Positions 5,343 to 59,632 of a stretch of 64,000 bases of DNA are shown here, in pieces. Below the pieces are notes generated by a model that ran no database searches, had not been told where the DNA came from, and saw only the letters and a list, made by a program, of their open reading frames with translations. The translations under genes and the position numbers were made by a program. The DNA is from Stegostoma tigrinum (taxonomy: Eukaryota): positions 74,819,614 to 74,883,613 of the forward strand of contig NC_081361.1 of NCBI RefSeq assembly GCF_030684315.1, given 5' to 3'. Each line of letters starts with the position of its first letter. Within the stretch, counting starts at the first letter, position 1.

Positions 5343-5518
5343 GAGTCAAAAAATGCAGAGCTGGAAAAGTACAGCAGGTCAGAAGAAGACTTTCCTGAAG
5401 AAGGGTTCCGACCTGAAACATTGACTTTCCTACTCCCTGGATGCTGTCTAACTTGCTGTGCTTTTGCAGCTCCACATTTTTTTACTCTGGCTTTTAGCAT
5501 CTGCAGTCCTTTCTGTCT
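5343..5518. mobile_element. Older palindromic PLE-terminus mini-element with degenerate hammerhead motif
   Basis: Inverted arms; ctgaagaagggttccgacctgaaacatt at ~5396; TSD ccagtcatg(g/a)gcca at 5329-5342 and 5519-5532. Confidence 0.7.
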
Positions 5519-6976
5519 CCAGTCATGAGCCAATTTGATTCATCCGCATGATACAACAGAACAGCACTGAATGCAACAAGAGTGAAGTGCCCTGAATACA
5601 ATCCAGCTCTAGTGTGAATGCTTTGTGCTGTAGAACAATCCCATACTCAAGATATTCCAATAGATCTAATAGAGGTACCCATTCTACCAGGACAATTGTT
5701 TTGATGTCAATAGAATGCAAATATAGGGGGCTAGAAAAATGTGTTCAGCCTAATCTTACCTTGATCCCACAGGTTGAGGTAGATTCAGATCTAGTCTAAA
5801 ACCTTGGAGTGCTTTTGACTCTGAGGTCTTGAGCACAAATTTGAAGTAGTGATAGAAAATGCCTTTGAAAGTAATCATCGGCCATCCAGCAGAAAAATAA
5901 TGTTTGGTACACCACATGGTCAGCGAACTGTAGATTAATATAGCTTCTGTAGCCCCCTTTTTAATTTGTAATGATTCAAGTTAACAGACGAGCTTCTGTT
6001 TAAACAGGCTTAATGTTGGTTTCATGTGAATTATTACAGAAGGTTCTGATGGGTTAAAGTTATTAATCAATAACTTTATCAATATTAGTCAAGTACCAGG
6101 ATTAAAACAAGTACAGATAAAGCAAAAACCATTCTTGTAAGAAGAAAATCCCAGTCAATCGAGAGGCCCATTATTTGAGTTTCTTGTTGAAGAGATTAAG
6201 ACTTAAAGTTATATCCAGTAGCTATGGTAGATTCTGTAATTGGATAGTTGGTATTTTCTTATCAATTAGATTTACAAAGGACAGCTCACTCTTTTTCTCC
6301 CTCTGTCTAGATAGAAACTTTCTGTCTAGGGAGCTTATGTTTTTGAGTCATTCATGGTTGACAAGCTAGAATTGTCACAGTTATCAAGTGACCTATGCAA
6401 AACTGAGTCCATATAATGCAGTAACATTCCATGGACAACTGTTCTCCTACTTGTGGTTCTTTTTTTTTGTAAAAGATATTTTTGAATCAACATGTTCAAA
6501 GATGTTGTTACATACCTCTGGAGCAGTTGGGACTTGAACCTGAGCCTCTTTGCCCAGAGGTAGGAACTTTTTTAGTTAAATTACCACCAATCACTCAAAT
6601 AACCCACGAAACAATAACAGTAACAAAACATACGGGAAAGTAGGAAGGGAGGGTGGGTACTAAATCAAAGTATAGTTGTAGGGGGAAATTGTGGTTCTAT
6701 GGTTTATTTGTGGTCAACACCCAATTTACATTGTTGCAATGATTCATCAATGAGTACTGTTAACTCCGAGAAATGAGTTTTTACATATTTGCATGTGTTT
6801 CTGTGTGATCCATGTAGAACTTCTGGTTGTACAGTCAGGTGACTTGTAGTAGTAACATTTTTAGCTTCTTGCCCAGTTGTACTCGGTTAATTTTTTTTTA
6901 CAGTAAGTGATATAGCCTTTAACAGACTTTCTCTTTAAAAAATGGCCCGTGGCTACACATTTGTAAAACGGTTCAT

Positions 6977-7310
6977 GGGGAGGTGATGACCAAGTGGTAT
7001 TCTTGCTGGGCCGTTAATCTAGAGTCCGAGGTGAAGTTCTGGGAACCTGGGTTCAAATCCTGCCATAATGGAATTTGAATTAAATCAAAATATGATATTA
7101 GGAGTCTACCGATGGTCATGATCCATTGCTGATTGTCGGGGGCAAAGCCCATCTGGTTCACTACTTTTAGGGAACGAAACTGCTATCGTTATCTGGTGTG
7201 GCCTACAAGTGAGTCCAGAACCACAGCAATTTGGTTAACTCTTAACTGCCCTCTAGAATGGGCAATAAATGCTGCCTAGCCAGTAATACCCTCATCCCTT
7301 GAATGATTTT
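6977..7310 (+). mobile_element. tRNA-derived SINE with LINE-like tail (related copies at ~33490-33660 -, ~52340-52760, ~57825-58190 +)
   Basis: B-box-like gggttcaaatcc, shared body (cccatctggttcact, ctcttaactgccctct) and tail gggcaataaatgctg repeated elsewhere in the window. Confidence 0.7.
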
Positions 7311-7488
7311 TAAAAAAGTTACCACAGATATCCGCTGTATATTAAACTGATGACTCATAAACTATTGAAGCTCTTTTGGATTATTTTCTAGATGTGTAAA
7401 TTTGTTTGTAATTTTGAAATGCACACATGCCCTTGTACAATTTCATTGTTCCGTTTGGAGTAGTAACCGATTTCTGTATTGCTGACAG

Positions 7489-7986
7489 GTTTGTTACTAC
7501 ATGGGGGTTGATGCCGTGCAGGAACTCCAGTTGGTGGATGAAAATGCACTAAACAATGCTTTAGTTTTCTTTGCCAAAGCCATGGAGCTTGACTTGGGAG
7601 ACACGCTGCCAGAGATCCAGTTGCTGAGAGGGAAGTGTTTACAGGTCAAAGGAGAGGAACACAATGCAGTTGAGTGCTTCAAACAAGCAATTGAACTTGA
7701 TGATGTAGGATCCCAGTACTCTGAGACATTCCGCTGCCTCATTGAATCACTATTGTCTCTGTTTATCCAGGAGAAATCCAGTGAGGAAATGGTTATCCGT
7801 GAGGTTGAAATTTGGGTAGAAAAAGCTGAGGCAAAGTATCAAATGGAGAGAGTCCGACGGGAACTACGCTCAATTTGTCGAAACCATATGCCCAAGATTT
7901 TGAAACTTGCCAGAGCTATGATCATATCTGGGAAGCTGCGAATAGTAAAATTACTTCTGGAAACAATGAATCCTGATCACACCTGA
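7489..7986 (+). CDS. TTC22: TTC22 terminal coding exon
   Basis: gctgacag|GTT; VCYYMGVDAVQELQLVDENALNNALVFFAKA...LPEIQLLRGKCL...LLLETMNPDHT*, matches recalled TTC22 C-terminus. Confidence 0.95.
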   Translation, partial: VCYYMGVDAVQELQLVDENALNNALVFFAKAMELDLGDTLPEIQLLRGKCLQVKGEEHNAVECFKQAIELDDVGSQYSETFRCLIESLLSLFIQEKSSEEMVIREVEIWVEKAEAKYQMERVRRELRSICRNHMPKILKLARAMIISGKLRIVKLLLETMNPDHT

Positions 7987-9682
7987 GTTAGCAAGATTTT
8001 GGTTAAGGAGTGAGTTATTTAAACACTTCCGTTATTTGTCTTTAAAAACCCACTACTTAAGGGTCTCTGTTGATAAACTTTGCCTTTTGTGTGGTGTTTA
8101 ATCAGATGGGACAAATGTTTAATGATTAGAGGCTAAATTGCAATCCAATCTCATCTTTTCACCATCATTTTGCCTTTTTTTTTGGCTGAGCTGCAAAAAG
8201 GTGTACTTGGTGTAAAATACCAAGTAGGTGACAACAAAACTTCGATTGGAATATGATTCTTCAAAAGAGATTTGTTCAACTGCTATTGATCAGTCACCAG
8301 TATCTCCTAACCATATTATGCTTACAATGTTTTTAGATACACTGTTGTCCGGGAATGATCAATGTGACCTTGATAGCACCTTCCTGACGAATGTCGGATC
8401 TTTCTGGTTTTCTGGAATTCCGTGGCAGAAATATTTAATGTATAAGTCGTCAGTAAAATGCTATTTTACTTTCAAACACTGGTATATCAGGCATTGTATT
8501 GGTTAATTGAAGGATAATGCACAGCGTACTTTATCCAACAATGTGACTCAATGTAACACCAATGGAACATCTACCACAATGCCAGACCATTTCCTACACA
8601 AGCCACCTCGGAATCTGTTTGAGAGAAATAATTGATTCAGAATGAGTATGTGCTGAGCTTTAAGTAGTTTTGTGCTGCAGTCTGCATCAAGACTGCTCTA
8701 GACTCATTCTGCTCTGACCACTATAACTGGCAGAGAACAGTTTTATTGCAGTTCGTGGAGATGAAAGAGGGTTACCTTAATCAGACATCACCAACTTCGT
8801 CGTCTCACTGTTTAATAGCATGTGTTGCATTAATATGCTATTAACATAATAGCTGGGATCTCACACTGGTAATTCTGATTGGTCTGTTGTTCATTGATTT
8901 TTTTTTAAAATTCTAAACTTTTCATACCCCGCAGAATCACAGCTAACTCATAAGACTGTCCCTTTTCTGGTTTATTAGGTTTAAACTGCTTACTTGCAAA
9001 GCAGTAATTGTATGAAATTTAAAATTATAGCAATGTGACTGAGTGAGTGAGTTGGTGCACTTATTGTGCTCAATTAATTTTATGATAAAGTGATTCAAAC
9101 ACCAGGACCAGATACTTGTGAAAATAAAGGCTTGAGGCTAACTCTTCTTCAAGCACAGGGAATTATTGATCCAGTGAAAATGTACCCGGCTTCCCCAGGT
9201 GTGATGATCTGCTTCAGTGACAGCTTTGCTGACAAAGTGGGTCCTTGAGACAGCTTCTGCCGTGTCTTCGGCGACACGGTGGTCCTGCCTGAGATTTGGC
9301 AAGTTTGATGTCAGATTTCTGCAGTGATGGAGAATGTGATTCCTCTTTTCTCCTCAACCTTGGGAACCCATGAGCTGTGAAGTGAACAAAGGAGGACTTT
9401 GTCTTCGTTTCTTTTAATATACAATTTCTGTTATTCATATTGGTGCTGGAGTATGGTGACTTAAACGCTCCTCATTGGTTTTGTTTTGTAAAAATAGAGG
9501 TGACAATAAATTACTATTCTGTTCAAAAGCCAAATACAATGGATGCTAGAAAATCTGAAGTAAGAGTGCTGTAGAAACTCAGCAGGTTAGAAGCAACTCA
9601 ACAGGAAGAGTTAATGTTTTGGACCATATGCTACTAAATAGTGAGATGGGGTCCTGGGTGATGACTGATTCAACATAACTGT

Positions 9683-9790
9683 CACAATCCCCACAGGGTC
9701 CACACACAACTTCCCACTTCTGTCTTTGACTGGCCCTGTTCCTACCCTAGTCATCCTCTTATTCATCACATCCCTATAGAAAGCTTTAGG
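9683..9790 (-). mobile_element. Short CR1 ORF2 fragment abutting the ERV leader
   Basis: KAFYRDVMNKRMTRVGTGPVKDRSGKLCVDP resembles the CR1 inter-domain motif. Confidence 0.65.
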
Positions 9791-10071
9791 GACAGGTAAC
9801 TGGAAAAGAGATCGGGGAGGATAGAGTCCCCCGGTGACCGGGGTTGAGTCCCTGAGTCTGGCAATTGGGAAAAGGGAGGGGGTTAGTATAAGATTGGGAA
9901 GGTATAAAAAGTGTTCAGACCTAGGTATAGAATAGGTACAGTGTCTGTCTGTCTCAACCACCCTGCCTTAGACCGGTTGTTAAGAGGGGAAATCCCCCAC
10001 GCGAAGGTCAGGACCCTGAAGTTGGTGTTGAGACTAAGGACACTGGTGCAGTACATAGAAACAAGTAAAAA

Positions 10072-11590
10072 GTGAAAGCGCTGGATAAGTCGGGTGTCGG
10101 AACCCCTTTACATTGGTTATGCTGGGATGACCCCGAAAATGAAGTACAGTACAGACGTCTGTTGGCATGCCTAAACAAAAAATTGGGAAATGAGAATTCG
10201 CCATTAGGGGGAACTTGGGATACAGATCTATGTACTAAAGCAGAAGAGGCACTGGAAAGGGTTAATGCCATTCTGGAGAAAGAGAGCTGAAGAGCTGACT
10301 GAAAAATCAAAACTGGCCAGTTGGGTGGATAATGCACATAGGAAAGGGATCAGTGCCTGTGATAATGAGGGGAAACCTAAAACTTGGGAAGTTTTAAAAT
10401 TGCAGTGTGAGGATCATGAGATGAAAGAAAGGGAAAGAGTTAAACAAGAAAGGCAGATGCGAGAACAACGAGACAAAGAAGGGGGATGAGAGCGGCAGGC
10501 CGCGTTGATAGGAAACAAAAAAGTTGGAGGTACCTCCTGACATATCTGGCATGCTGATGTTGCTCCAAATTAATGATAGAGATGAACAAGATGAGGAGGC
10601 CTTGGGAAGGCACCCCTTTGCCCCATCGGGACCACTACCCCTCGACAACCCTACCCGTCCTTGGCCAACCTACATCTGCAGGCACCCCAACGCTGCCATC
10701 AGTCCCAGCAATCGCCCGTAGCCCTGTCACCGCCACCGTACACTGACCAAACCAAACCTCCTGCTATAGAATCTCCAAGCCCTTCAGTAATCAGCCCACA
10801 TGAATCCCCTGACAAACCCGCAGCTTGTACAGACCCTATCTCCTGTCGTACTAAATCTAAAACTAATCAGACCATTAGTGGACAAAAGGAGGGACGGCAG
10901 AATTCTTTTAAAACCCATGAGAAGCCTGGGAAAACATAAGTCCCGTGTGCAGTTCAGTAGACCCTCTAGCACCTGTTTAGTGTTTCCTAGTGATTCTACA
11001 AGTAGCGAAGGGTATGACAGTCCCGATTCACAGGCAGAGGATCGTGAATCTGAGGACAGAGCTTGGAAGAGACCCTTGGATAACCGTCCCCTAAAGAAGG
11101 ACCCCCGTAAGAAAAATCACCGGCAATTTCCTAATCACATGGTCCCTCACCCAAAGCCAACACAAGTGGGTCAAAATACAATCAGAGATAATAGGAACTG
11201 CAGATGCTGGAGAATCCAAGATAATAAAATGTGAGGCTGGATGAACACAGCAGGCCAAGCAGCATCTCAGGAGCACAAAAGGTGACGTTTCGGGCCTAGA
11301 CCCTTCATCAGAGAGGGGGACCATTTATTCCAGAACCCTCACCGCAACCCCTCTCTGATGAAGGGTCTAGGCCCGAAACATCAGCTTTTGTGCTCCTGAG
11401 ATGCTGCTTGGCCTGCTGTGTTCATCCAGCCTCACATTTTATTATCTTAGGTCAAAATACAATGCAGGTCTATACCCCTTGGAAGCCACAAGATAAGTGT
11501 TTAATTATGTCAAGGGCCCCTGATCGAAAGACTAACCCAGAAGATTTTATAGATTACATCCTGGGCACTATTCAAATACATCAAGCCACC
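10072..11590 (+). pseudogene. gag: ERV gag remnant (MA, Pro-rich region with PPPY late domain, CA N-terminus)
   Basis: TPL...PLGGTWD (MA-like), PPPY at 10730-10741, QVYTPWKPQD...NPEDFIDYILGTIQIHQAT (CA-like); interrupted at 11183-11449 and truncated at ~11590. Confidence 0.8.
11183..11449. mobile_element. Palindromic Neptune-PLE terminus mini-element inserted in gag
   Basis: Two inverted copies of the PLE terminus; perfect 14-bp TSD ggtcaaaatacaat (11169-11182, 11450-11463). Confidence 0.9.
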
Positions 11591-11619
11591 CCCCCCAAGA
11601 CCTCATTAGCCTGTGCTGC

Positions 11620-11908
11620 GTCTTTGCTGCGCTCTCCAGCCCTCAGGGTCAGTTCCAGGAACTTGACCTCCCTCAACCTTATCTGTGCCTTCTTAGGGTT
11701 TATCTGAATCAACCCGCTCTTGCACAGGAGTTGTAACAACTCACTCAGTAGGGGGCCATGTTCCTCACTATTGCCTGTGAACAACAGGATGTCGTCCACG
11801 TACTGTACAAGCCTGTGTGGCTCACTGAAATCTTTTAAACAGTCTGCCATACACTGGTGGAAAATGCTGGGGCTATTATGGAAACCCTGTGGCAGACAAC
11901 TCCATGTG
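11620..11908 (-). pseudogene. pol: Retroviral reverse transcriptase fragment, downstream part, antisense to the ERV
   Basis: TWSCLPQGFHNSPSIFHQ...LVQYVDDILL...INPKKAQI..EVKFL. Confidence 0.9.
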
Positions 11909-14081
11909 CCAGACGCCAACTCTCCGACACCACCACCTACCACCCCCTCGATCATGACCCCACCCCCGAGCACCAAACCATCATCTCCAACACCATTCAT
12001 GACCTCATCACCTCAGGGGACCTCCCACCCACAGCCTCCAACCTCATTGTTCCCCAACCCCCGCACGGCCCGTTTCTATCTCCTTCCCAAAATCCACAAA
12101 CCTGCCTGCCCTGGTCGACCAATCGTCTCAGCCTGCTCCTGCCCCACCGAACTCATCTCCACCTATCTGGGCTCCATTTTCTCCCCTTTGGTCCAGGAAC
12201 TCCCCACCTACATCCGTGACACCACCCACGCCCTCCACCTCCTCCAGGACTTCCAATTCCCTGGCCCCCTACACCTCATCTTCACCATGGACGTCCAGTC
12301 CCTATACACCTGCATTCCGCATGCAGATGGCCTCAAGGCCCTCTGCTTCTTCCTGTCCCGCAGGCCCGACCAGTTCCCCTCCACCGACACCCTCATCCGC
12401 CTAGCCGAACTCGTCCTCACCCTCAACAACTTCTCTTTTGACTCCTCCCACTTCCTACAGACTAAGCGGGTGGCCATGGGCACCCGCATGGGCCCCAGCT
12501 ATGCCTGCCTCTTTGTAGGTTACGTAGAACAGTCCCTCTTCCGCACCTACACAGGCCCCAAACCCCACCTCTTCCTCTGGTACATTGATGACTGTATCGG
12601 CGCCGCCTCTTGCTCCCCAGAGGAGCTCGAACAGTTCATCCACTTCACCAACACCTTCCACCCCAACCTTCAGTTCACCTGGGCCATCTCCAGCACATCC
12701 CTCACCTTCATGGACCTCTCAGTCTCCATCTCAGGCAACTAGCTTGTAACTGATGTCCATTTCAAGCTCACCGAATCCCACAGCTACCTAGAATACACCT
12801 CCTCCCACCTGCCCTCCTGCAAAAATTCCATCCCCATTCCCAATTCCTCCGCCTCCACCGCATCTGCTCCCACGATGAGGCATTCCACTCCCGCACATCC
12901 CAGATGTCCAAGTTCTTCAAGGACTGCAACTTTCCCCCCACAGTGGTCGAGAACGCCCTTGACTGCATCTCCCGCAACACGTCCCTCACAGCCCGCCCCC
13001 GCCTCAACCGCCCAAAGAGGATCCCCCTCGTTCTCACACACCACCCCACCAACCTCCGGATACAACGCATCATCCGCCGACACTTCCGCCATCTACAATC
13101 CGACCCCACCACCCAAGACATTTTTCCATCCCCACCCCTGTCTGCTTTCCGGAGAGACCACTCTCTCCGTGACTCCCTTGTTCGCTCCACACTGCCCTCC
13201 AACCCCACCACACCCGGCACCTTCCCCTGCAACTGCAGGAAATGCTACACTTGCCCCCACACCTCCCCCCTCACCCTTATCCCAGGCCCCAAGATGACAT
13301 TCCACATTAAGCAGAGGTTCACCTGCACATATGCCAATGTGGTATATTGCATCCACTGTACCCGGTGTGGCTTCCTCTACATTGGGGAAACCAAGCAGAG
13401 GCTTGGAGACCGCTTTGCAGAACACCTCCGCTCAGTTCGCAACAAACTACTGCACCTCCCAGTCGCAAACCATTTCCACTCCCCCTCCCATTCTTTAGAC
13501 GACATGTCCATCATGGGCCTCCTGCAGTGCCACAATGATGCCACCCGAAGGTTGCAGGAACAGCAACTCATATTCCGCCTGGGAACCCTGCAGCCTAATG
13601 GTATCAATGTGGACTTCACCAGTTTCAAAATCTCCCCTTCCCCAACTGCATCCCTAAACCAGCCCAGTACGTCCCCTCCCCCCACTGCACCACACAACCA
13701 GCCCAGCCCTTCCCCTCCACCCACTGCATCCCAAAACCAGTCCAACCTGTCTCCGCCTCCCTAATCTGTTCTTCCTCTCACCCATCCCTTCCTTCCACCC
13801 CAAGCCGCACCCCCATCTACCTACTAACCTCATCCCACCTCCTTGACCTGTCCGTCTTTCCTGGACTGACCTATCCCCTCCCTACCTCCCCACCTATACT
13901 CTCCTCTCCACCTATCTTCTTTTCTCCCCATCTTCGGTCCGCCTCCCCCTCTCTCCCTATTTATTCCAGAATCCTCTCCCCATCCCCCTCTCTGATGAAG
14001 GGTCTAGGCCCGAAACGTCAGCTTTTGTGCTCCTGAGATGCTGCTTGGCCTGCTGTGTTCATTCAGCCTCACATTTTGTTG
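11909..14081 (+). mobile_element. 5'-truncated Penelope-like retroelement, Neptune type (RT + GIY-YIG), disrupted ORF
   Basis: FYLLPKIHK..PGRPIVS, MDVQSLYTCIPH, AMGTRMGPSYA, YIDD, Cys-rich linker CNCRKCYTC, NVVYCIHC..CGFLYIGETKQRLGDRFAEH; frameshifts and a stop at 12740; 8-bp TSD tccatgtg (11901-11908, 14082-14089). Confidence 0.95.
13990..14021 (+). ncRNA. Minimal type I hammerhead ribozyme motif (family A) in PLE terminus
   Basis: CU-CUGAUGA-A-GGGU(CUAG)GCCC-GAAAC-GUC-AG: intact core, stem II, palindromic ACGU stem III; activity untested. Confidence 0.8.
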
Positions 14082-14180
14082 TCCATGTGTACTGTTGTCT
14101 TTTAAAAGTAAATGCGAATTTGTACTGGTCCTGCTGAACCGGGATAGACCAGAAACCATTCGAGATATCCAGCACCGTGA
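14082..14180 (-). pseudogene. pol: Retroviral reverse transcriptase fragment, upstream part (motif A)
   Basis: Manual minus-strand translation FTVLDISNGFWSIPVQQDQYKFAFTFKRQQYTW; joins in frame to 11908 once the PLE and one TSD copy are removed. Confidence 0.9.
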
Positions 14181-14575
14181 AATTCCCACCCTCCCTGCTT
14201 TAAGGCAGGAGAGCGCCTTTCCATCAATGGCACGTGCCATTGTTTTGAAATTCACAACCACTTATCCAAGTAATTGATATCTCTTGAAACTGCTGGCTGA
14301 GGTTTCTCCCACAGCTGTGGCTCCGCTGGGTCCTAGGGCCCATCATCCATTCATTCATTCCCGTTTTGAGGAAGGGTTGCTGGACCTGAAACATTAACTC
14401 TTTTGTTTTAAGAATTTCTGATTTTTGTGTGTGGTAAATTTGGTTAATTTTTTAGCATGTATGATTTGGTCAATTTACACTATAATTCTTGACTGGTAGT
14501 TGACTGGTGGTGATGTACACACACATGGTAATTTTTTAAACCAGCTAGAGTTTTCTTCCCCCTCCTCCCCTCCTG

Positions 14576-14606: not shown

Positions 14607-14607
<1 letters not shown>

Positions 14608-21000: not shown

Positions 21001-21190
21001 GATGTGGAGGTGCCAGTGTTGGACTAGGGTGGACAAGGTCAGAAGTCACACGACACCAGGTGATTGTCACATAACACCACGTTATAGTCCAACAGGTTTA
21101 TTTGAAATGACAAGCTTTTGAAGCGTAGCCCCTTTGTCAGGTGATTTCAATTAAATCTGTTGGACTATAACGTGGTGTTATGTGACTTCT
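21001..21190. mobile_element. PLE-derived inverted-repeat mini-element (family D) with decayed hammerhead motif
   Basis: Arms gtcacataacaccacgttatagtccaacag / ctgttggactataacgtggtgttatgtgac; minus-strand ctgacaaaggggctacgcttcaaaagctt at 21111-21144. Confidence 0.65.
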
Positions 21191-22659: not shown

Positions 22660-22851
22660 AATCGTCGGAACTTCCCTTTAGAAGCAAAGCGCGGTAAATG
22701 GTAAAAGTTGACAAACTTTGGAAGCACGGCGAAGCCTTGGAGCTGGTGCCGAGATTCGCGATTTGGGCCGTTCTGGACTGAGTCCCGATCCGTAACAGTA
22801 ACCGACACATGCGCATTAGGGAGAATGCGTGTCAGGTGAACGGAGTGACGA
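22660..22851 (+). promoter_or_regulatory. Probable PARS2 promoter / non-coding first exon
   Basis: Local CpG enrichment ~2.2 kb upstream of the PARS2 acceptor; cggaa and atgcgca motifs; candidate donors cag|gtgaac and (after the insertion) aa|gtgagt. Confidence 0.55.
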
Positions 22852-23272
22852 GAGATAATGGGAACTGCAGATGCTGGAGATTCCAAGATAATAAAATGTG
22901 AGGCTGGATGAACACAGCAGGCCAAGCAGCATCTCAGGAGCACAAAAGCTGATGTTTCGGGCCTAGACCCTTCATCAGAGAGGGGGATGGGGAGAGGGAA
23001 CTGGAATAAATAGGGAGAGACGGACCGAAGATGGAGAGTAAAGAAGATAGGTGGAGAGAGTATAGGTGGGGAGGTAGGGAGGGGATAGGTCAGTCCAGGG
23101 AAGACGGACAGGTCAAGGAGGTGGGATGAGGTTAGTAGGTAGCTGGGGGTGCGGCTTGGGGTGGGAGGAAGGGATGGGTGAGAGGAAGAACCGGTTAGGG
23201 AGGCAGAGACAGGTTGGACTGGTTTTGGGATGCAGTGGGTGGGGGGGAAGAGCTGGGCTGGTTGTGTGGTGC
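22852..23272 (-). mobile_element. Neptune PLE 3' fragment
   Basis: Reverse complement of the 3' region at ~13690-14078 plus full terminus; 12-bp TSD acggagtgacga (22840-22851, 23273-23284). Confidence 0.92.
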
Positions 23273-23284
23273 ACGGAGTGACGA

Positions 23285-29050: not shown

Positions 29051-29347
29051 GCGAGTTTTGAGAAGATTTGTAGCTCAGGTTGAGGTTCTGGATGTGAGTT
29101 TGCTCGCTGAGCTGGAAGGTTAGTTTTCAGACGTTTCGTCACCATTCTAGGTAACATCATCAGTGAGCCTCCGACGAAGCGCTGGTGTTATGTCCCGCTT
29201 TCTAACCCAAGGAAACCTAACCAGATAAATAGAAAGCGGGACATAACACCAGCGCTTCGTCGGAGGCTCACTGATGATGTTACCTAGAATGGTGACGAAA
29301 CATCTGAAAACTAACCTTCCAGCTCAGCGAGCAAACTCACATCCAGA
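29051..29347. mobile_element. Palindromic Penelope/Poseidon-type PLE mini-element (family B)
   Basis: 118-bp arms 29087-29204 and 29230-29347 with one mismatch; same terminus as the 38911-40065 element; TSD gccc(a/t)tgaaaaga (29038-29050, 29348-29360). Confidence 0.9.
29127..29166 (-). ncRNA. Minimal type I hammerhead ribozyme motif (family B)
   Basis: UCA-CUGAUGA-U-GUUACC(UAGAAU)GGUGAC-GAAAC-GUC-UGA; mirror copy on + at 29268-29307 has GUC>AUC. Confidence 0.8.
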
Positions 29348-32957: not shown

Positions 32958-33075
32958 GAATTTGAAAAGATTCCAATGTTTATGAAAAAGCCACCTGAAG
33001 AACTTGATCCTTTGAAACATCCAGAACTTGCCTGCATCCAGTCAATGTTGTATGATGAAGATCAATCTCCAGAAG
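32958..33075 (+). CDS. TTC4: TTC4 exon 2
   Basis: aag|GAA...G|gtac; EFEKIPMFMKKPPEELDPLKHPELACIQSMLYDEDQSPE. Confidence 0.93.
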
Positions 33076-33783
33076 GTACCGAAATTCAACCAAAACACAT
33101 TTAAATTGGTAGATTTTCATTTTGCAAACAAGTAGCTGGCTTCCTGCTGATTTCTTGTTCTGAGAATTCAGTGGAATGAAATTTTCTGGCTTTGACTGGG
33201 TTTTATTTATTTTTTCCATGGAATGTGTGTGTTATCAGCAAGGCTAGCATCTTTTGCCTGAATGGCTTGCGAGGGCATTTTGGAGGGAAGAGTCAACCAC
33301 TCGGTAGTGGATATGGAATCACATATTGGTCTAACTGGATAAGGTTGGCCGATTAAGAGCAATTGTGTCCTGTTATAAAGTCATTGATCTGAACCAGAAG
33401 CTGTTAGTGCTGCCTGACCACCTGAATTTTCCCAGCTTCTTCTGTTCGTAATTTCAGTCTTCTGGCACTTTGCTTTGGTTTGTAAGGATAGTAGATTTCC
33501 TTTCCCAAATGACATTAGTGAATCAGATGCATTTTTGCAACAATTGATGATTGTTGTCATGTTAGTTGCTGCAGGGGGATTTGAAATCATATCCCAGAAC
33601 ATTAGTTTGGGCATTTTGATTACTGGTCCAGTGACATTACCACTATGTTGCTATCTCCACATCTACATGTTATCATTTATAAAAGTGTTAGATTATAATA
33701 CAGTCAGTACTCTACAATGCATTGTTTTAGCCTGATTCCATCTTTATTTTCAGAAGAATACAAAAAAGATAGTAATCCTGTGA

Positions 33784-33940
33784 TAATAAAATGTGAGGCT
33801 GGATGAACACTGCAGGCCCAGCAGCATCTCAGGAGCACAGGAGCTTTTGTGCTCCTGAGATGCTGCTTGGCCTGCTGTGTTCATCCAGCCTCACATTTTA
33901 TTATCTTGGATTCTCCAGCATCTGCAGTTCCCATTATCAC
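33784..33940. mobile_element. Palindromic family A mini-element lacking the hammerhead core
   Basis: Inverted termini; TSD tagtaatcctgtga (33770-33783, 33941-33954). Confidence 0.88.
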
Positions 33941-35465: not shown

Positions 35466-36643
35466 AGAGGAGATAATGGAAACTGCAGATGCTGGAGAAT
35501 CCGAGATAACAAAGTGTGGAGCTGGATGAACACAGCAGGCCAAGCAGCATTTTAGGAGCACAAAAGCTGACGTTTCGGGCCTAGACCCTTCATCAGAAAA
35601 GGGCAATGGGGAGAGGATTCTGAAATAAATAGGGACAGAAGGGGAGGCGGACCGAAGATGGATAGAGGAGAGTATGGGTGGGGAGGTAGGGAGGGGGTAG
35701 GTCAGTCTGGGGAGGACGGACAGGTCAAAGGGGCAGGATGAGATTAGGTAGGAAATGGAGGTGCGGCTTGAGGTGGGAGGAGGGTTAGGTGAGAGGAAGA
35801 ACAGATTATGCAGGCGGGGATGAGCTGGGCTGGGTCACCTGCACATCCGCCAATGTGGTATACTGCATCCACTATACCCGATGTGGCTTCCTCTACATTG
35901 GGGAAACCAAGTGGAGGCTTGGTGACCGCTTTGCAGAACACCTTTGCTCGGTTCACAATAAACAACTGCACTTCCCAGTCGCGAACCATTTCAACTCCCC
36001 CTCCCATTTCTTAGACGACATGTCCGTCCTGGGCCTCCTGCAGTGCCACAATGATGCCACCCGAAGGTTGCAGGAACAGCAATTCATATTCCGCTTGGGA
36101 ACCCTGCAGCCCAATGGTATCAATGTGGACTTCACAAGCTTCAAAATCGCCCCTCCCCCCACTGCATCCCAAAACCAGCCCAGCTCATCCCCGCCTCCTA
36201 ACCTGTTCTTCCTCTCACCTATCCCCTCCTCCCACTTCAAGCCGCACCTCCATTTCCTACCTACTAACCTCATCCCGCCTCCTTGACCTGTCCGTCCTCC
36301 CCGAACTGATCTATTCCCTCCCTACCTCCTCACCCATACTTTCCTCTCCACCTATCTTCTCCTCTATCCATCTTCATTCCGCCTCCACCTCTCTCCCTAT
36401 TTATTTCAGAATCCTCTCCCCATTCCCCTTTAATGATGAAGGGTCTAGGCCCGAAACGTCAGCTTTCCTGCTCGGCCTGCTGCGTTCATCCAGCCTCAGG
36501 ATTAGGCCCGGAACGTCACCTTTTTTTGCTTGGCCTGCTGTGTTCATCCAGCTCCACACTTTGTTATCAAGGAATTGGAGTGAGTTGAACACATTGTTCT
36601 GTCATTCTCTCATTCCACTCATTTAATCTGCATTGTTATCTTC
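35466..36643. mobile_element. Neptune PLE fragment: inverted 3' end joined to a sense GIY-YIG fragment and terminus
   Basis: 35466-35834 antisense, ~35835-36500 sense (NVVYCIH..FLYIGETK); intact minus-strand hammerhead 35567-35597; short flanking repeat ggtggtg (35459, 36644). Confidence 0.9.
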
Positions 36644-37064: not shown

Positions 37065-37880
37065 TGCTGAAAACAAAACTGCTGAAGATCACAGCAGGTC
37101 AGGCAGTGTCCATGAAGAGAGAACAGAGAGAACAAGCTAATGTTTTGAGTCTAGATGACTATTTATCAGATCTGATGTGAAGTGTGGAGGGAGCAGCATT
37201 TATGCTATTGGAGGGGGAGGTTGGAGTGCTGTGGTAGAAAGGGTGCTAATAGTGCACATTTAGTGATTGGAGTGTGAGAATGGCAGAACGATGATGTGTC
37301 TAACTGTTGATGTGTCTAACTGCCAGACTGGAAAGAACAGACAGTGCTATTGGATTGGAGGCAGGGGAGAGAGAACATGGTGACAGAAAATGTAACAAAT
37401 AAAGCTAAAAGAAAGGGAAGGAATTGGAGTGATCAGAGATAATTGGAACTGCAGATGCTGGAGAATCCGAGATCCGAGAATCCAGTGTTTTAGGAGCACA
37501 AAAGCTGACCTTTCTAGGCCCGAAACGTCAGCTTTTTTTGCTTGGCCTGCTGTGTTCATCCAGCTCCACACTTTGTTATCAAGGAATTGGAGTGGGTTGA
37601 ACACATTGTTCTGTCATTCTCACATTCCACTCATTTAATCTGCACTATGAACACCTTTTCTCCCCCAGCACTCAGCAGGACTCTCTCCCCCCCCCCCCCC
37701 CCCCCCCACCACCCACCATTGCATCAATACTGTCTCCTTCACACTTCACGTCAGCCCTGATGAGTCATCTAGACTCAAAGCATTAGCTTGCTCTGTCTCC
37801 ATGGATGCTGCCTTAACTGCTGTGATTTCCAGCATTTTTTGTTTGCAGTACAGATTCCAGCATCTGCAAGAATTTGCTCA
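37065..37880. mobile_element. Older inverted-arm PLE-derived element (family C) with nested family A mini-element at ~37433-37580
   Basis: Arms gctaatgttttgagtctagatgact / agtcatctagactcaaagcattagc; decayed hammerhead at 37757; nested insert with TSD aaggaattggagtg (37419, 37581). Confidence 0.75.
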
Positions 37881-38527: not shown

Positions 38528-38740
38528 GAGATAATAGGAACTGCAGGTGCTGGAGAACCCATGATGACAAGATGTAGAGCTGAATGAACACAGCTAGCCA
38601 AGCAGCATCTTAGGAGCAGGAAAGCTGATGTTTCGGGCTTAGGCCCTTCATCATGGAGGGTCGAGGCCCGAAACGTCAGCTTCCTGCTCCTAAGATGCTG
38701 CTTGGCTAGCTGTGTTCATCCAGCTGTACATCTTGTTATC
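38528..38740. mobile_element. Palindromic family A-related mini-element
   Basis: Inverted termini meeting at the hammerhead cores; perfect 14-bp TSD taggtaatgatgaa (38514-38527, 38741-38754). Confidence 0.9.
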
Positions 38741-38910
38741 TAGGTAATGATGAACCTCTCTTTCCTACTGTCATCCATTTTTCCTTCTTTTTATTGAGGA
38801 AAAAAAATAATTTCTTGAAAAGATTGATCATTTAATAGACTCCATGTTTAATTATTAACATTAATGCTGCATTATGAAATGGAGGTGGGTGTTGTGAAAC
38901 TGGTATCTCA

Positions 38911-40065
38911 CTGAGCTGGAAGGTTAGTTTTCAGACGTTTCGTCATCATTCTAGGTAACATCATCAGTGAGCCTCCGACGAAGCGCTGGTGTTATGTCCC
39001 GCTTTCTATTTATCTGGTTAGGTTTCTTTGGGTTGGTGATGTCATTTCCTGTTCTTTTTCTCAGGGGATGGTAGATTGATTTGGAGCCAATGTGTTTGTT
39101 GATGGAGTTCCGGTTGGAGTGCCATGCTTCTAGGAATTCTCGTGCATGTCTCTGTTTGGCTTGTCCTAGGATGGATGTGTTGTCCCAATCAAAGTGGTGT
39201 CCTTCCTCATCTGTATGTAAGGATACGAGTGATAGTGGATCATGTCGTTTTGTGGCTAGTTGATGTTCATGTATCCTGGTGGCTAGCTTTCTGCCTGTTT
39301 GTCCAATGTAGTGTTTGTCACAGTTCTTGCAAGGTATTTTGTAGATGACGTTCGTTTTGCTTGTCTGTATAGGGTCTTTTAAGTTCATTAGCTGCTGTTT
39401 TAGTGTGTTGGTGGGTTTGTGGGCTACCCTGATGCCAAGAGGTCCGAGTAGTCTGGCAGTCATTTCGGAAATGTCTTTGATGTAGGGGAGAGTGGTTATG
39501 GTTTCTGAGCCCGTTTTGTCTGTTTATTTGGGTTTATTGCTGAGGAATCGGCGGACTGTGTTCATAGGGTACCCATTCTTTTTGAATATGCTGTATAGGT
39601 GATTTTCCTCTGCTCTGCGTAGTTCCTCTGTGCTGCAGTGTGTGGTGGCTCGTTGGAATAATGTTCTAATGCAGCTTCGTTTGTGGGTGTTGGGATGGTT
39701 GCTCCTGTAGTTCAGTATTTGGTCCCTATGTGTTGTCTATAGGAAAAGAGCACATATGGACCAAATACTGAGACACGCATGAGAATTCCTAGAAGCATGG
39801 CATTCCAACCGGAACTCCATCAACAAACACATTGATTTGGAGCCAATCTACCATCCCCTGAGAAAAAGAACAGGAAATGACATCACCAACCCAAGGAAAC
39901 CTAAACAGATAAATAGAAAGCAGGACATAACACCAGCGCTTCGTCGGAGGCTCACTGATGATGTTACCTAGAATGGTGATGAAACGTCTGAAAACTAACC
40001 TTCCAGCTCAGCGAGCAAACTCACAATCAGAACCTCAACCTGAGCTACAAATCTTCTCAAAACTC
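38911..40065 (-). mobile_element. Penelope/Poseidon-type PLE fragment (GIY-YIG) with inverted copy of its 3' end
   Basis: NVIYKIPCKNCDKHYIGQTGRKLATRIHEH..REFLEAWHS; inverted copy ~39770-40065; hammerhead motifs at ~38931-38970 (-) and 39952-39991 (+); TSD actgg(t/c)atctca. Confidence 0.92.
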
Positions 40066-40159
40066 ACTGGCATCTCAGTACGGTTACTTGATCAGTAAAT
40101 AAAGCTTTGAGAAATGGATTTTCCAGTGATATTAAATGACTGAAGTGTTGTGCTGACAG

Positions 40160-43470: not shown

Positions 43471-43683
43471 AGAGATAATGGGAACTGCAGATGCTGGAGA
43501 ATTCCAAGATAATAAAATGTGAGGCTGGATGAACACAGCAGGCCAAGCAGCATCTCAGGAGCACAAAAGCTAATAAAATGTGAGGCTGGATGAACACAGC
43601 AGGCCAAGCAGCATCTCAGGAGCACAAATGTGCTCCTGAGATGCTGCTTGGCCTGCTGTGTTCATCCAGCCTCACATTTTATT
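43471..43683. mobile_element. Family A mini-element (tandem plus inverted termini, no hammerhead core)
   Basis: Perfect 14-bp TSD aaaataaagacatc (43457-43470, 43684-43697). Confidence 0.9.
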
Positions 43684-45266
43684 AAAATAAAGACATCCTT
43701 CACTTTTGGCAATTAATGTTAATGTCTGTTTTAAAGTAGGACAAAGCCAAAAAAGTTTTAAATGCTGGATATCTGAAGCAAACACAGGTAATGCTGGAGA
43801 AACTCAGCAGGTCTGGCAATATCTGTGGAGAGAGAAACAGAGTCCGGTATGACACTGAACGGGGTTCTCTAGCAGTCTCAGTGTTTGTTCTAGGTATGAC
43901 ATCTAGTGTTCTAAAAATAGCCTCTCCAAAGATCTGAGCAAGCTTAGAACTTATAGGCAAATGTTCATGTGATGTGGACTGATATTTTAATTATGTTATG
44001 TTAATGACAGCTTCAAACTAGATGTTTCAATGAATGAACTGCAGGCATGTCAAAATTATTTCCCACTTTAGTTAATGCATGCACAATAGTGGCTTTGTCC
44101 CTGCTTTCTGGAACTGTCTGAATACACTGGCAATTTGCAGTCTTCCTTTTTTGATAGCTTTGTGGTGAAATAGGGCTGAGAATAGCTTGGTAGCAGACAT
44201 TTCTCAAAGGTTGTGAATGTAGGTCACAAGATGAAATGAGACTGTCCTGACTGTCCCCTAGTCTCCTTGTTCTGAAATGCCTCACTGGAGTAGTTTGTTG
44301 GAAATCAGCCACATTATCATCTGAGTCATCACAGAAGTTAAAATGTTATCACATTTCATGATATCTCCAGTTTACCTTTTCGATAGACTCAAATTAACAT
44401 GGACCAGGTTTCTGTAATTATAAGAGCTTTTGAGTGCAAACAAATAGATTCTAACTACAGGTAAACAACTATTAACTGTTGACATCACTCTATCAGTTAA
44501 AGCTGTATAACTCCCTTGTAAAACTCACCACACACATACACAGCCGAAAAAATCTGGTGTTACGGCTGGAGGGAAGGTAAAGTACCAGTGTGGGGGAAAC
44601 ACTTCAATAGTCCTCAGGATTCGACTGTTTGTTTAAGTTCTCTGATTCTCTGATCATCTCCTTCATGTTTTTTCATTTCTTCATGGGAGTATAAGATGAA
44701 CTAGTTCACAAATGACTTCTTGGTTGAAAGCAACATTTTACAGCACTCGATGGGAGAGAAGACCTGGTTTTCTTTAGCTTCAGGTATTTTATAGGGAAGG
44801 GAGAGACTATCTCCCCTTGCAAAAGTCTGAGGGCCTCCCCTTGAAGCTTTCACATCCACAAGCTGTTCAGCTACCCAGCAACTAATCACAGAGTTGGTGC
44901 CAGGCTGATGAGCTTGGCGACCATGACTGGTCACATTTCCACTAACCAATCAGCTACTTGCTACTGGCTGAATCTCTCTCAGTACATTGTACTGGTGTCC
45001 ATGCTGTCTTCTTTAACTCCTTCCCATGCTGCTTGCAAAGCAAAAATGTAAACATAACTGACAATGAGTTTCAGTCACTTGATAATTAAAAATACAGCAA
45101 TTCCTTTCTCGGTTCTCATTTTATATTAACAGTCCTTTTCCCAGTTCAATCAAGAATAAAGTAAAACAAAAAGTTACATCGCTATAGTACTGATTCATGA
45201 GTGTCATTTTTGTTTACTGCCAAGCAAGGTTTCTAGAGATTAACTTTGACTCCATTCTCTTTTCAG

Positions 45267-48667: not shown

Positions 48668-48865
48668 GTAGAGATTACATGGTGTAGAGCTAGATGAACA
48701 CAGCGGGCCAAGCAGCATCAGAGGAGCAGGAAGACTGATGTTTCGGGCCTAGACCCTCCAGGCCCGAAACATCAGTCTTCCTACTCCTCTGATGCTGCTT
48801 GGCCCATTGTGTTCATCCAGCTCTACACCTTGTTATCTCAGATTCTCCAGCATCTGCAGTTCCTA
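48668..48865. mobile_element. Palindromic family A-related mini-element
   Basis: Inverted termini; flanking repeat ccttctccaagc (48656-48667, 48866-48877). Confidence 0.85.
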
Positions 48866-51259: not shown

Positions 51260-51359
51260 ATATTTTGTGAAGGCTGGAAATCCGAGAATCATAATTCTAG
51301 TAAGAGGTTCATCGTTCTCTAAAGACTTTCTATCAGGAAAGAAGCTCCAAGCCATTTGA
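51260..51359 (+). CDS. TTC4: TTC4 exon 10 (terminal)
   Basis: atccag|A; YFVKAGNPRIIILVRGSSFSKDFLSGKKLQAI*; AATAAA at 51363. Confidence 0.9.
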
Positions 51360-54172: not shown

Positions 54173-54539
54173 CTGTAAAAGAAATTGCATGTAAGCATTT
54201 TGAATTACCATTCACTGACTGCATGATATACATCAGTCAGATGTAATACAATATCTTCTAAGCTACCAATTTGTTGATCAAATTTAAGGCAGATTTCTAC
54301 TGTGAGCTAAATATAATCCAGAATTAGCAGAAGGCTCTCAAAATGCATTTCATTTAGACCTCAGGAAGACAATGAAAACAGCAAATTGAACAAATTATAC
54401 CATCTTCTTGACATTTTAATATAAATTAAAACAGTCTAAGAGAATGCTGGTGAGCATGCTTGTAAGTGTTTGAATTCATGATATAAGCATTGGTATCAGG
54501 GACCAGATAAGAAACCAACCCTATATTCGTTAGCACAGT

Positions 54540-54990
54540 AGAGAGCTGGAAGAACACAGCAAGCCAGGCAGCATCACAGGAGCAGGAAAGTTGATATTTT
54601 GAGTCAGGACCCTTGTTCAGAAATGGGAGGGGGGAGCATGAAGCTTAGAAATAAATAGACAGGAGAGGTAGGGCTGGGGAGGTAGGTGGGATGACGATAG
54701 GTGAGTGCAGGTAGGGAGCAGTGGGGATTGGTCAGTGGGATGGGAGGAGCCAATCCCCACCTCTGACTACCTGTACTCACCTATCATCATCCCACCTACC
54801 TTCCCAGCCCCACTCTTCCTCTCCATTTATTTCTGAGCTCCGTTCCCCCACCCCACCACAATTTCTGAAGAAGGGTCCTGACCCAAAACGTCAAATTTCC
54901 AGCTCCTTTGTTGCTGCCTGGCTTGCTGTGTTCTTCCAGCTCCATACTGGTTTACCTCTCTGACTCCAGCATCTGCAGTTCTTGCTATGT
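54540..54990. mobile_element. Older inverted-arm PLE-derived element
   Basis: Arms ~54540-54750 and ~54750-54955 are reverse complements; decayed hammerhead ctgaagaagggtcctgacccaaaacgtc at ~54865. Confidence 0.8.
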
Positions 54991-58217: not shown

Positions 58218-58317
58218 GTGATATAAATGTGACCCATATCTGCATTCCCCAGAAGGTGGAGAGGAACATAAGGTGCAGAAGCTTGGCTAATGTTGTAGGT
58301 TCTCCTTCAGTAGACAT
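58218..58317 (-). CDS. TMEM205: TMEM205 coding exon 1
   Basis: accATGTCT; MSTEGEPTTLAKLLHLMFLSTFWGMQIWVTFIS|gtaagt; acceptor at ~58362. Confidence 0.93.
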
Positions 58318-58814
58318 GGTAATTGGCACAGATGACATCATAACTAATGAAGGCAGAAACCCTGCACCAAGTTAGAGAAGACATGAGGGGGAAGTGAAAA
58401 GCAGAAAGAAAGTTAAACTAAGCTCAAAAATGATCATCTTTGACCCAACTTGTGATTTATGTCTAAAGTTCTTGAGTATTTTTATATTGAGTATTATATC
58501 TTTTGCTAAATATATGTGACCTCCACCATAAATTCCAGAAAAATACCCCAAATATCTTTTAAATTATTAAAGATTTTGAATCAGGTAGACACCGAGAAAG
58601 TGATTTCTCTTATGAGAATGGTAAAACTGAAAGGTATCAACTTGAGAATTCAGAAGAAACACCATCCAGATTGGTGAAAATTGTGTAAGTTGCTACTACG
58701 AGCTAAATATTTAAATATATTTGACTGAAGACTGAATAAACTAATGAGAGAACAGGGAATAGATCTATGAGGTGAGAAGGAGGTATGAACAGAGTCTAAA
58801 TCCCATCCACCATC

Positions 58815-59200
58815 TACAGGGCATAAGTCATAAGTGTAATGGAATACACCTGACTTGCCTGGATGGGTGCAGCTCCAACAACTCACAAGAAGCTTGACAC
58901 TATCTAGGACAAAGCAACCCACTTGCCTGGCACCACATCTCCAAACATCCACTCCTTCCACCACAGAAACTCAGTAACAACAACGTGTACTATCTACAGG
59001 ATGCACTGCAAATATTCACCAAGGTTTCTTATTCAGTACCTTCCAAACCCAAGACTGCTACAAGGAAAAGGACAGCAGATTCAAGTGCACACCATCAGCT
59101 GCAAGATCTTGTCCAAACCATTCACTATCCTGACTTGGAAATATATCATCATTCCTTCAGTGTCACAGGGTCAAAATCCTGGACATTAAATACTTGGCCA
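58815..59200 (+). mobile_element. LINE (CR1/L2 group) ORF2 3' fragment
   Basis: Reads as SVMEYT*LAWMGAAPTTHKKLDTI*DKA; related fragment at ~45730-45990. Confidence 0.7.
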
Positions 59201-59544
59201 AAACACATCCCATCAGTGAATTAAAAAACATGGTCCTTTCTGTTGCAAAATATACATTCGATATTCAATGATAGCTTTCCCTGCTGCTCTGTAGACATTT
59301 CCATTGTCGTTACTATTTCTTTTTCAGTATTTGTTAACACTTGGCAGCGTTATTAAGATCCATTAAATTGATTGATCCTGCCAGGAGTGGTGCACCCTAG
59401 ATGGAAATCCATCTTCGCAACCTTGCTGTCCTTATTCATTCTGATCTAAACTTCCAACATGCTATCCATCAGCAAGCTTCAACTTCAGGACACCAAATCC
59501 CTCTGTCCCTACTTCTTTGGGATTACTAAGGTGCTCAACCTCTG

Positions 59545-59632
59545 ATGGAGGGTCCAGGCCCGAAACGTCAGCTTTTGCGCTCCAGAGATGCTGCTTGGCC
59601 TGCTGTCTTCATCCAGTTCCACACTTTGTTAT
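59545..59632 (+). mobile_element. Solo family A PLE terminus
   Basis: Hammerhead-like ctgatggagggtccaggcccgaaacgtc; 11-bp TSD ctcaacctctg (59534-59544, 59633-59643). Confidence 0.85.

What the first reader, a model, noticed from the sequence alone, without database searches (positions are those of the whole stretch)
5343..59632. At least four families of minimal hammerhead ribozymes scattered through a shark gene cluster
Seen: CUGANGA-N-stemII-GAAA-palindrome-UH recurs with different, internally complementary stem II sequences. Family A is GGGU/GCCC (intact at 13990 + and 35567 -; variants at 11282 -, 11355 +, 22949 -, 36435, 38650, 59542). Family B is GUUACC/GGUGAC (29127 -, 29268 +, 38931 -, 39952 +). 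Family C is GAGU/ACUC (3526, 37135 -, 37757, all decayed). Family D is decayed at 21111 -. The core is conserved while the stems co-vary. Established: PLE termini carry minimal type I hammerheads that are thought to cleave as dimers through a palindromic stem III. Inference: more than 15 motifs in 64 kb implies a very large genome-wide ribozyme load, from both Neptune- and Poseidon-type elements.
Basis: partly seen in the sequence, partly recalled or inferred. Interest (0 to 1): 0.75.

Follow-up and report, generated by a model that had tools for sequence, protein, structure and literature searches.

The report
Penelope retroelement hammerhead relics in shark
A shark gene region holds about two dozen copies, mostly decayed, of the small "hammerhead" self-cutting RNA motif that Penelope-like jumping genes carry at their ends; the kind is known and these copies are likely inert, but the genome likely holds on the order of a hundred thousand of them.

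Summary
The motifs are real: 6 have a complete hammerhead core, stem II and the ACGU palindrome (0.05 expected in shuffles), and 24 full-length relics are recognisable. [quoted passage not shown] Stems covary between subfamilies, but individual copies decay, mostly at two CpGs in the core. The abundance likely follows from position: insertion begins 62-99 nt downstream of the motif, so even short stubs carry it. Most copies are predicted inert: many have an inverted partner, and no intact copy has a same-family, same-strand partner within 9.8 kb. Read data point to about 10^5 copies genome-wide (rough bounds 5x10^4 to 10^6), against 4,000-9,000 reported for coelacanth and Xenopus. Cleavage was not tested. 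The kind was described in 2014, and this scan noted the same in other shark genomes. One lead remains: two stubs start exactly at the predicted cut site.

The parts
11908..14083 (+). 5'-truncated, broken Neptune-type PLE: RT (YIDD motif), Cys-rich linker PCNCRKCYTC, GIY-YIG endonuclease, pyrimidine-rich pLTR, hammerhead, short end. 5' boundary approximate
   Evidence: Pfam RVT_1 E 4e-4 and GIY-YIG E 5.5e-4, both below the curated cut-offs; RT relatives carry RVT_1 and some GIY-YIG, best hit 79% from a bamboo shark; translations with frameshifts and a stop
13992..14019 (+). Family A minimal hammerhead, intact: stem I 2 bp, stem II 4 bp, ACGU palindrome; predicted cut after 14019
35569..35596 (-). 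Family A hammerhead, intact, antisense in TTC4 intron 4; arm 35470-35833 ends with the tail
11284..11311 (-). Family A hammerhead, core and palindrome intact, stem I 1 bp; one arm of the fold-back insertion 11185-11448
11355..11382 (+). Family A relic, palindrome lost (CG to CA); inverted partner of 11311-
22951..22978 (-). Family A relic, palindrome lost; arm 22852-23273 with a flanking direct duplication
35832..36570 (+). Neptune-type GIY-YIG fragment, pLTR and family A relic 36433-36460 (C3 lost), followed by a partial second copy
   Evidence: tblastn 82% to P0002
38528..38741 (.). Fold-back insertion with two family A relics (38654-, 38650+), joined inside the core
59540..59636 (+). Family A stub; relic 59542-59569 with A9 to G
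54527..54990 (.). Older Neptune-type inverted pair: relics 54593-54620 (-) and 54865-54892 (+; G12 to A, 5-bp stem I)
5307..5518 (.). Older Neptune-type fold-back in a TTC22 intron; relic 5395-5422 (+), both CpGs decayed
3526..3555 (+). Family C relic (Neptune-type subfamily; A-U at stem II pair 2), G12 to A
37139..37169 (-). Family C relic, decayed; inverted partner of 37757+
37757..37784 (+). Family C relic, decayed
14366..14395 (+).
   Evidence: 22165- comes only
33776..33940 (.). Hammerhead-less fold-back of the family A tail; the + arm starts at +1 after the predicted cut
43472..43686 (.). Three hammerhead-less family A tail arms, starting at +1, +5 and +7 after the predicted cut
37436..37580 (.). 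Family A fold-back joined inside stem II (partial motifs only); same design at 48671-48870
29130..29163 (-). Family B hammerhead, perfect: stem I 3 bp, stem II 6 bp; one arm of the fold-back 29050-29351
29271..29304 (+). Family B relic, palindrome lost; inverted partner of 29163-
38907..39770 (-). 5'-truncated Poseidon-type PLE: thumb region and GIY-YIG without Cys linker; hammerhead 38934-38967 with one stem II mismatch
39767..40068 (+). Inverted arm of the Poseidon-type insertion; hammerhead 39955-39988 (G-U closing pair), the only intact core sense to a mapped host intron (TTC4 intron 4)
21112..21140 (-). Family D relic: G8 and G12 changed to A, AGCU palindrome, inside a fold-back with arms of about 38 bp (21065-21187); clade unknown

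Best explanation
These motifs are the minimal type I hammerheads of two kinds of Penelope-like retroelement (Neptune-type and Poseidon-type), left behind in truncated insertions that are likely inert. Shown: the motifs sit 3' of GIY-YIG reading frames; arms end at two fixed points about 34 nt apart; many insertions are fold-backs with flanking direct duplications; copies decay mainly at CpGs. Inferred from work on other PLEs: in a live tandem element the motif cuts the long transcript after GUC, as a dimer through the ACGU palindrome or with help from the element's protein. Reverse transcription starts 62-66 or 97-99 nt downstream of that site and mostly copies uncut RNA. The hammerhead is therefore among the first things copied, and most stubs carry it. 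Abundance then reflects position and retrotransposition rate, not selection on each copy.
For: RT + linker + GIY-YIG upstream of 13992+, GIY-YIG upstream of 38967- and 36433+. Two 3' ends in the window (+62 to +66, +97 to +99) and genome-wide (2,953 and 1,895 contigs with loose ends at 35503/35504, 1,311 at 35470), matching the 30-40 bp PLE tail (PMC8557442). Flanking duplications of 12-18 nt in 10 of 17 insertions against 1 of 300 random pairs. Family B opens a frame at A9 that runs 108 nt to the long end; in anole Poseidon the ORF starts at stem II and reverse transcription starts 111-118 nt in (PMC11167929). The two core CpGs are altered in 12 of 24 and 13 of 23 copies, all as TG, CA or TA, against 14 of 240 other core positions. 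Bisulfite loose-end consensus lines keep C at CpG while other C's convert, so pLTR copies are methylated (table 7). Stem II probability is at most 0.03 for the three A copies with 40/100 nt or more of context, and falls from 1.00 to 0.00 for 29163- once its inverted arm is included. The nearest same-family, same-strand intact pairs are 9.8 kb and 24.3 kb apart; A-B heterodimers form no stem I.
Against: No cleavage assay and no RNA end data exist here, so inertness is predicted only; folding models ignore tertiary contacts, Mg2+ and proteins. 39955+ keeps stem II (0.7-1.0 with 400 nt flanks, which do not reach its inverted partner motif) and is sense to TTC4 intron 4. The family A end is present in two RNA-like assemblies (2,150 and 1,410 contigs laid). 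Tandem joints of a 95-nt hammerhead-bearing unit occur elsewhere in the genome (25, 32 and 9 contigs) and could dimerise in cis. Two arms start exactly at the cut site, which suggests that some templates were cut. Clades rest on motifs, not on an RT tree.
Confidence: 0.85

Rival explanations
1. The copies form a working ribozyme load: with so many transcribed copies, same-family hammerheads pair in trans or across introns and cut host pre-mRNAs.
For: Six intact cores in 64 kb; roughly 10^5 copies; the repeat end is in RNA-like assemblies; tandem units exist elsewhere.
Against: Stem I is only 2-3 bp. The active dimer scores -5.5 kcal/mol against -38.0 for the best dimer in A, and -16.7 against -25.7 in B. 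Published minimal hammerheads are inactive as monomers and weak as dimers (PMC4209133), or need the element's protein (PMC11167929). Only 1 of the 3 intact cores inside TTC4 is sense, and it has no same-family, same-strand partner in the gene. Neptune-type arms show no strand bias (19 +, 16 -), though power is low.
Confidence: 0.08
2. The short hammerhead-bearing units are a non-autonomous retrozyme family that spreads through circular RNA, not truncated PLE ends.
For: 95-nt head-to-tail joints in DNA contigs; retrozymes are reported in one chondrichthyan and derived from pLTRs (10.64898/2026.07.22.740005).
Against: No hammerhead-bearing tandem array among the 9 rows. 5' ends vary from about -2,100 to +7 while 3' ends are fixed, as expected of truncation. 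The sequences are continuous with GIY-YIG frames.
Confidence: 0.05
3. The motifs are chance look-alikes inside repeats, or the sequence is kept for another reason (ORF start, splice site, primer structure).
For: Rfam finds no hammerhead. In B the motif overlaps the end of one frame and the start of the next. Hammerhead mutants do not affect insertion in vitro (PMC11167929).
Against: The same 11-base core and palindrome occur in lineages with unrelated stems and tails. 4 of 8 pairs change on both sides among 14 aligned copies, with 0 of 500 shuffles reaching the paired fraction (relatedness inflates this test). The anole homologue cleaves in a C3/G8-dependent way (PMC11167929).
Confidence: 0.02

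Closest known systems
Minimal hammerheads (min-HHR) in pLTRs of metazoan Penelope-like elements (Cervera & De la Pena 2014, PMC4209133; parts 1-2 of 4 read)
   Same: Type I core, an extra base between positions 9 and 10.1, G10.1-C11.1, palindromic 15.2-16.2 with no loop III, several consensus families per genome, mostly solo copies, some close pairs on opposite strands; reported in fish Xena, Poseidon and Neptune.
   Different: Stem I is 2-3 bp in the young copies (4-5 bp in their schistosome families, 2 bp in D. virilis); stem II is 4 or 6 bp. No shark is named in the parts read. The copy number here appears 1-2 orders above their 4,000 (coelacanth) and 9,000 (X. tropicalis), but those are descriptor counts and mine are homology-based bounds.
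Poseidon_Ac of the green anole (Frangieh et al. 2024, PMC11167929; parts 1-2 of 4 read)
   Same: Family B: hammerhead overlapping the ORF start, cut site 28 nt after the ATG (26 in anole), long end 108 nt into the frame (111-118 in anole), two ends a tail apart.
   Different: Only the 3' part of the element is in the window, and it is broken; activity and protein dependence are untested.
Neptune clade PLEs (Craig et al. 2021, PMC8557442; passages read)
   Same: RT, CX2-5CxxC linker, C-terminal GIY-YIG, 5' truncation, inverted arms, optional 30-40 bp tail.
   Different: No RT tree was built, and Nematis shares the linker. Flanking duplications look longer (about 12-15 nt) than the 8-10 bp given for rotifer Penelope (PMC3846280, passages).
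Non-LTR retrozymes (Li et al. 2026, 10.64898/2026.07.22.740005; parts 1-2 of 5 and passages read)
   Same: Type I hammerheads derived from PLE pLTRs; found in their one chondrichthyan genome.
   Different: They are tandem arrays with a hammerhead in each unit; the window has dispersed solo and inverted stubs.

Membership tests
PLE minimal type I hammerhead | Core CUGANGA, GAAA, UH in type I order around stem II | tested here: met
   12 exact cores with stem II, 6 with palindrome and UH; shuffles 0.125 and 0.05
PLE minimal type I hammerhead | One extra base between positions 9 and 10.1; G10.1-C11.1 pair | tested here: met
   Extra base in 6 of 6 intact copies; G-C in 5 of 6, G-U in 39955+
PLE minimal type I hammerhead | Palindromic 15.1-16.1 stretch with no loop III | tested here: met
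   ACGU in A and B, AGCU in D
PLE minimal type I hammerhead | Stem I (4-5 bp in schistosome families, 2 bp in D. virilis) | tested here: inconclusive
   1-3 bp in the six intact copies, 5 bp in 54865+; 3 of 3 stem I pairs change on both sides but only 64% of cells pair
PLE minimal type I hammerhead | Location in the pLTR 3' of an RT/GIY-YIG frame | tested here: met
   13992+, 36433+, 38967-; not shown for D
PLE minimal type I hammerhead | Self-cleavage after UH as a dimer or with protein | not testable with these tools
   No assay; no raw RNA reads were listed
Neptune clade | CX2-5CxxC linker between RT and GIY-YIG | tested here: met
   PCNCRKCYTC in P0002; definition in PMC8557442
Neptune clade | RT phylogeny (separates it from Nematis) | not tested
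   No named reference sequences were at hand; one search hits are mostly unnamed
Penelope/Poseidon clade | No Cys linker before GIY-YIG; hammerhead overlapping the ORF start | tested here: met
   P0001; open frame from A9
Penelope/Poseidon clade | RT phylogeny | not tested
   The RT core of family B is not in the window
Canonical hammerheads in Rfam | Match to an Rfam hammerhead model | tested here: not met
   None among 35 matches at E up to 5
Non-LTR retrozyme | Head-to-tail array with a hammerhead in each unit | tested here: not met
   None among the 9 rows; tandem joints exist elsewhere in the genome

The most novel reading that the evidence does not exclude
This shark genome holds the largest hammerhead collection yet described in an animal (10^5 or more intact cores), and its insertions record cleavage in the germ line: a class of stubs begins exactly at the cut site because the template was already cut. 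In the window two arms start at +1 and one at about +2, and joints at +1 are 2 of the 12 best-supported rows with inserted letters in the DNA contigs. A genome-wide map of 5' ends would then test directly whether PLE hammerheads cut in vivo.
Probability: 0.22. Interest if true: 0.55.

Novelty: new member of a known kind. Interest (0 to 1): 0.24.

Why it matters
What PLE hammerheads do is open: they are weak in vitro, dispensable for insertion in the one reconstituted system, and no cut RNA ends were found in anole data (PMC4209133, PMC11167929). A genome with about 10^5 copies gives the sample size to test cleavage in vivo (a spike of 5' ends at +1) and cost to the host (sense-strand depletion of intact cores in introns). 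The window itself shows a known arrangement. It is also a caution for ribozyme counts: three quarters of the motifs here are damaged.

Tried and rejected
No whole genome is held, so no genome-wide descriptor scan was run. Exact-pattern scans found nothing in metagenome contigs (family A tail) or viral contigs (family A hammerhead), so no outside loci were obtained. No RNA holder was listed and no raw RNA reads were offered; this says nothing about expression. One search listed no place where many molecules begin or end, but contigs and a DNA run cannot show RNA ends. Its variant table showed no row inside the core and withheld 88 rows, so genome-wide core conservation could not be read. The loose-end peak at 35597 first looked like a sharp truncation hot spot; it coincides with the point where subfamilies diverge from the reference, so I do not claim it. 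Rfam's microRNA matches are all below their gathering scores and fall on fold-back insertions; rejected. A-B cross-family dimers through the shared palindrome were rejected (stem I 0 bp). The long stem I of copy D was rejected as evidence, because it is part of the inverted duplication. MAFFT misaligned family B with the others, so B was left out of the pair count (14 of the 24 relics, 13 Neptune-type plus D); B was compared by anchors. The core-like match at 32995+ lies in TTC4 exon 2 and fails the stem test; it was dropped, as were the other gapped matches that fail it. Eleven partial or junction-cut candidates were left out of the 24. The family B offsets printed are 6 too high: true ends are +80, +46 and +27. 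Lunse et al. 2017 is not held and is known here only through a review (PMC6765202, passages).
Full report
Setting. The window is shark DNA. A TTC4 exon is 87% identical to whale shark and 79% to epaulette shark; a TTC22 exon is 98% and 97% identical to whale shark and bamboo shark. That points to a carpet shark. Three host genes lie on the + strand: the last three exons of TTC22 (1238-7986), a single long PARS2-like frame (24960-26435; Pfam tRNA-synt_2b; the name PARS2 is my recall from domain and gene order) and ten TTC4 exons (30956-51359). No whole genome is held.

An exact core with a stem II of 4 bp or more occurs 12 times (shuffle mean 0.125, 40 shuffles); with palindrome and UH it occurs 6 times (mean 0.05). 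The six are 11311-, 13992+, 35596- (A) and 29163-, 38967-, 39955+ (B). By hand I count 24 full-length relics out of 35 candidates examined; the other 11 are partial or cut at a junction. A profile of the Neptune-type end finds 35 arms covering 3,837 bases, and none in the reversed window (the profile was built from window copies). Rfam finds no hammerhead.

Three lineages. Family A follows an RT frame, a CX2CxxC linker and a GIY-YIG domain at about 11908-14083; the copy is truncated and broken by frameshifts and a stop. The Pfam scores are below cut-off, but the RT has 140 relatives at E 1e-60 or better; of the 120 listed most carry RVT_1 and some GIY-YIG. The linker marks Neptune or Nematis (PMC8557442). 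Family C shares the downstream tail with A: an A seed finds 37754-37869 at E 2e-4 and 38238-38359 at 6e-7, and the latter finds 3523-3621 at 3e-9. A and C are therefore subfamilies of one lineage. Family B follows a GIY-YIG frame with no Cys linker. Its A9 begins an open frame that runs 108 nt to the element's long end, close to anole Poseidon, where the ORF starts at stem II and reverse transcription begins 111-118 nt in. D is one copy with G8 and G12 changed to A. A loose descriptor that admits it expects 0.025 hits per shuffled window, and it lies in a fold-back like the others, so it is probably a real relic; its clade is unknown. No RT tree was built.

Covariation and decay. Among 14 aligned copies (13 Neptune-type and D), 82% of cells pair (stem II 95%, stem I 64%), and 4 of 8 pairs change on both sides; slid controls give 7-52%. 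Relatedness inflates the shuffle test and the structure was drawn from these sequences, so this is moderate support. B has a wholly different stem II and stem I around the same core. Single copies are not conserved: the CpG at 11.1-12 is altered in 12 of 24 and the palindrome CpG in 13 of 23, always to TG, CA or TA, against 14 of 240 other core positions. Bisulfite reads keep C at CpG in pLTR loose-end lines while other C's convert. This is what methylated, neutrally decaying repeats look like (inference).

Why so many. Family A arms end at +62 to +66 or +97 to +99 from the cut site. The same two ends dominate DNA contigs genome-wide (2,953, 1,895 and 1,311 loose ends). The 34-nt difference is the known PLE tail. 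Ten of 17 insertions have a flanking duplication of 12-18 nt with at most one mismatch, against 1 of 300 random pairs; these lengths may include some microhomology. Many are head-to-head fold-backs, as described for PLEs, and opposite-strand joints inside the motif recur in reads. Since copying starts under 100 nt downstream, most stubs reach the hammerhead, and those that include it were copied from uncut RNA, as in the anole system.

Copy number. On a 1,051-base stretch with one family A arm, 183,240 DNA contigs were laid; single-copy depth was 19.6 and summed depth over the 3' part of the motif 2.9x10^7. The tool warns that this is no copy number. Allowing up to 31-fold overcounting gives 47,000 to 1.5 million; the bin with the 5' end of the core gives only 6,000 to 187,000. 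Bisulfite reads, which map poorly, give lower bounds of 8,000-12,000 at the motif and 48,000-77,000 in the pLTR for an assumed genome of 2.8-4.5 Gb. Scaling 6 intact cores per 64 kb gives 2.6-4.2x10^5, from a window picked for this feature. About 10^5 is my estimate. Published descriptor counts are about 4,000 for coelacanth and 9,000 for X. tropicalis. Penelope-like expansion in whale shark introns is already noted (10.1101/443036, passages).

Are the copies active? Probably not. In short monomers of 13992+ and the B copies the core pairs with the palindrome and cut site. With 40/100 nt or more of context, stem II probability is at most 0.03 for A; 29163- drops from 1.00 to 0.00 when its inverted arm is included. 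The active dimer lies 32 kcal/mol (A) and 9 kcal/mol (B) above the best dimer, and A-B pairs form no stem I. Same-family, same-strand intact neighbours are 9.8 and 24.3 kb apart. Against this: 39955+ keeps its stem II and is sense in TTC4 intron 4; the repeat end occurs in two RNA-like assemblies, one from another organism; and 95-nt tandem units exist elsewhere. These are folding predictions only, and the anole motif cleaves once protein is added.

One lead. Of about 22 family A arms, 17 start between -60 and +7; two start at exactly +1 (33842+, 43571-) and three at +5 to +7 (my tally from the table). A further Neptune-type arm starts at about +2 (43843-). Two or more at +1 has a chance of 0.01-0.024 under a flat model. 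Joints at +1 are 2 of the 12 rows shown in table 5c (105 not shown). Both window junctions have short microhomology, and +1 to +4 is itself a palindrome, so cleavage is not the only explanation.

Novelty. The kind, the architecture and the many-families-per-genome pattern were described in 2014, and a 2026 preprint covers one chondrichthyan (supplements closed). A search for hammerhead ribozyme, Penelope and shark found one paper, where 'shark' refers to the head shape; searches listed no title on shark PLE hammerheads. The library lacks most subscription journals. Two further papers were searched by passage and added no shark data (10.1101/2025.06.08.657570; PMC7761336). Earlier notes of this scan report the same thing in other genomes, several of them sharks; my reading was recorded before I saw them. 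Verdict: a real, new member of a known kind, notable mainly for scale. Interest 0.24.

Noticed in passing
window 15708-17315 (+): Broken piece of an endogenous retrovirus: RNase H, integrase zinc-binding and core, and MLV-type integrase C-terminal domains in separate frames.
   Followed up: no
window 17600-17736 and 18577-18713: Inverted repeats of 137 nt, 93% complementary, 840 nt apart, not matched by the PLE-end searches; possibly a non-autonomous DNA element.
   Followed up: no
window 22640-22852: CpG-enriched stretch ending in a donor-like CAG|GTGAAC at about 22835; it may be the promoter and first exon of the PARS2-like gene. A family A arm sits about 16 nt downstream, antisense.
   Followed up: partly
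window 1238-51359: TTC22, the PARS2-like gene and TTC4 all lie on the + strand; from recall, human TTC4 is on the opposite strand to the other two, which would imply a local inversion.
   Followed up: no
window 14000-14011 and other young family A copies: Stem II with its loop is self-complementary over 12 nt, so two copies are predicted to form a stable inactive duplex that competes with the active dimer. Older subfamilies lack this.
   Followed up: partly
insertions at 11185-11448, 22852-23273, 29050-29351, 33780-33940, 37436-37580, 38528-38741, 38907-40068, 43472-43686, 48671-48870, 59540-59636: Flanking duplications of about 12-15 nt, longer than the 8-10 bp reported for rotifer Penelope; fold-back pairs tend to have the tail on one arm only.
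   Followed up: partly
window 36503-36632 and 37515-37644: A 130-nt segment made of a deleted family A end plus its flank is duplicated at 97% identity 1 kb apart.
   Followed up: no
window 60001-62000: CpG island-like stretch (observed/expected 0.84 and 0.69), probably the start of the next gene; not identified.
   Followed up: no
window 38954-38973 (-): In family B the hammerhead core is read in two frames: the GIY-YIG frame ends through it and stops at loop II, while the next frame starts at A9.
   Followed up: partly
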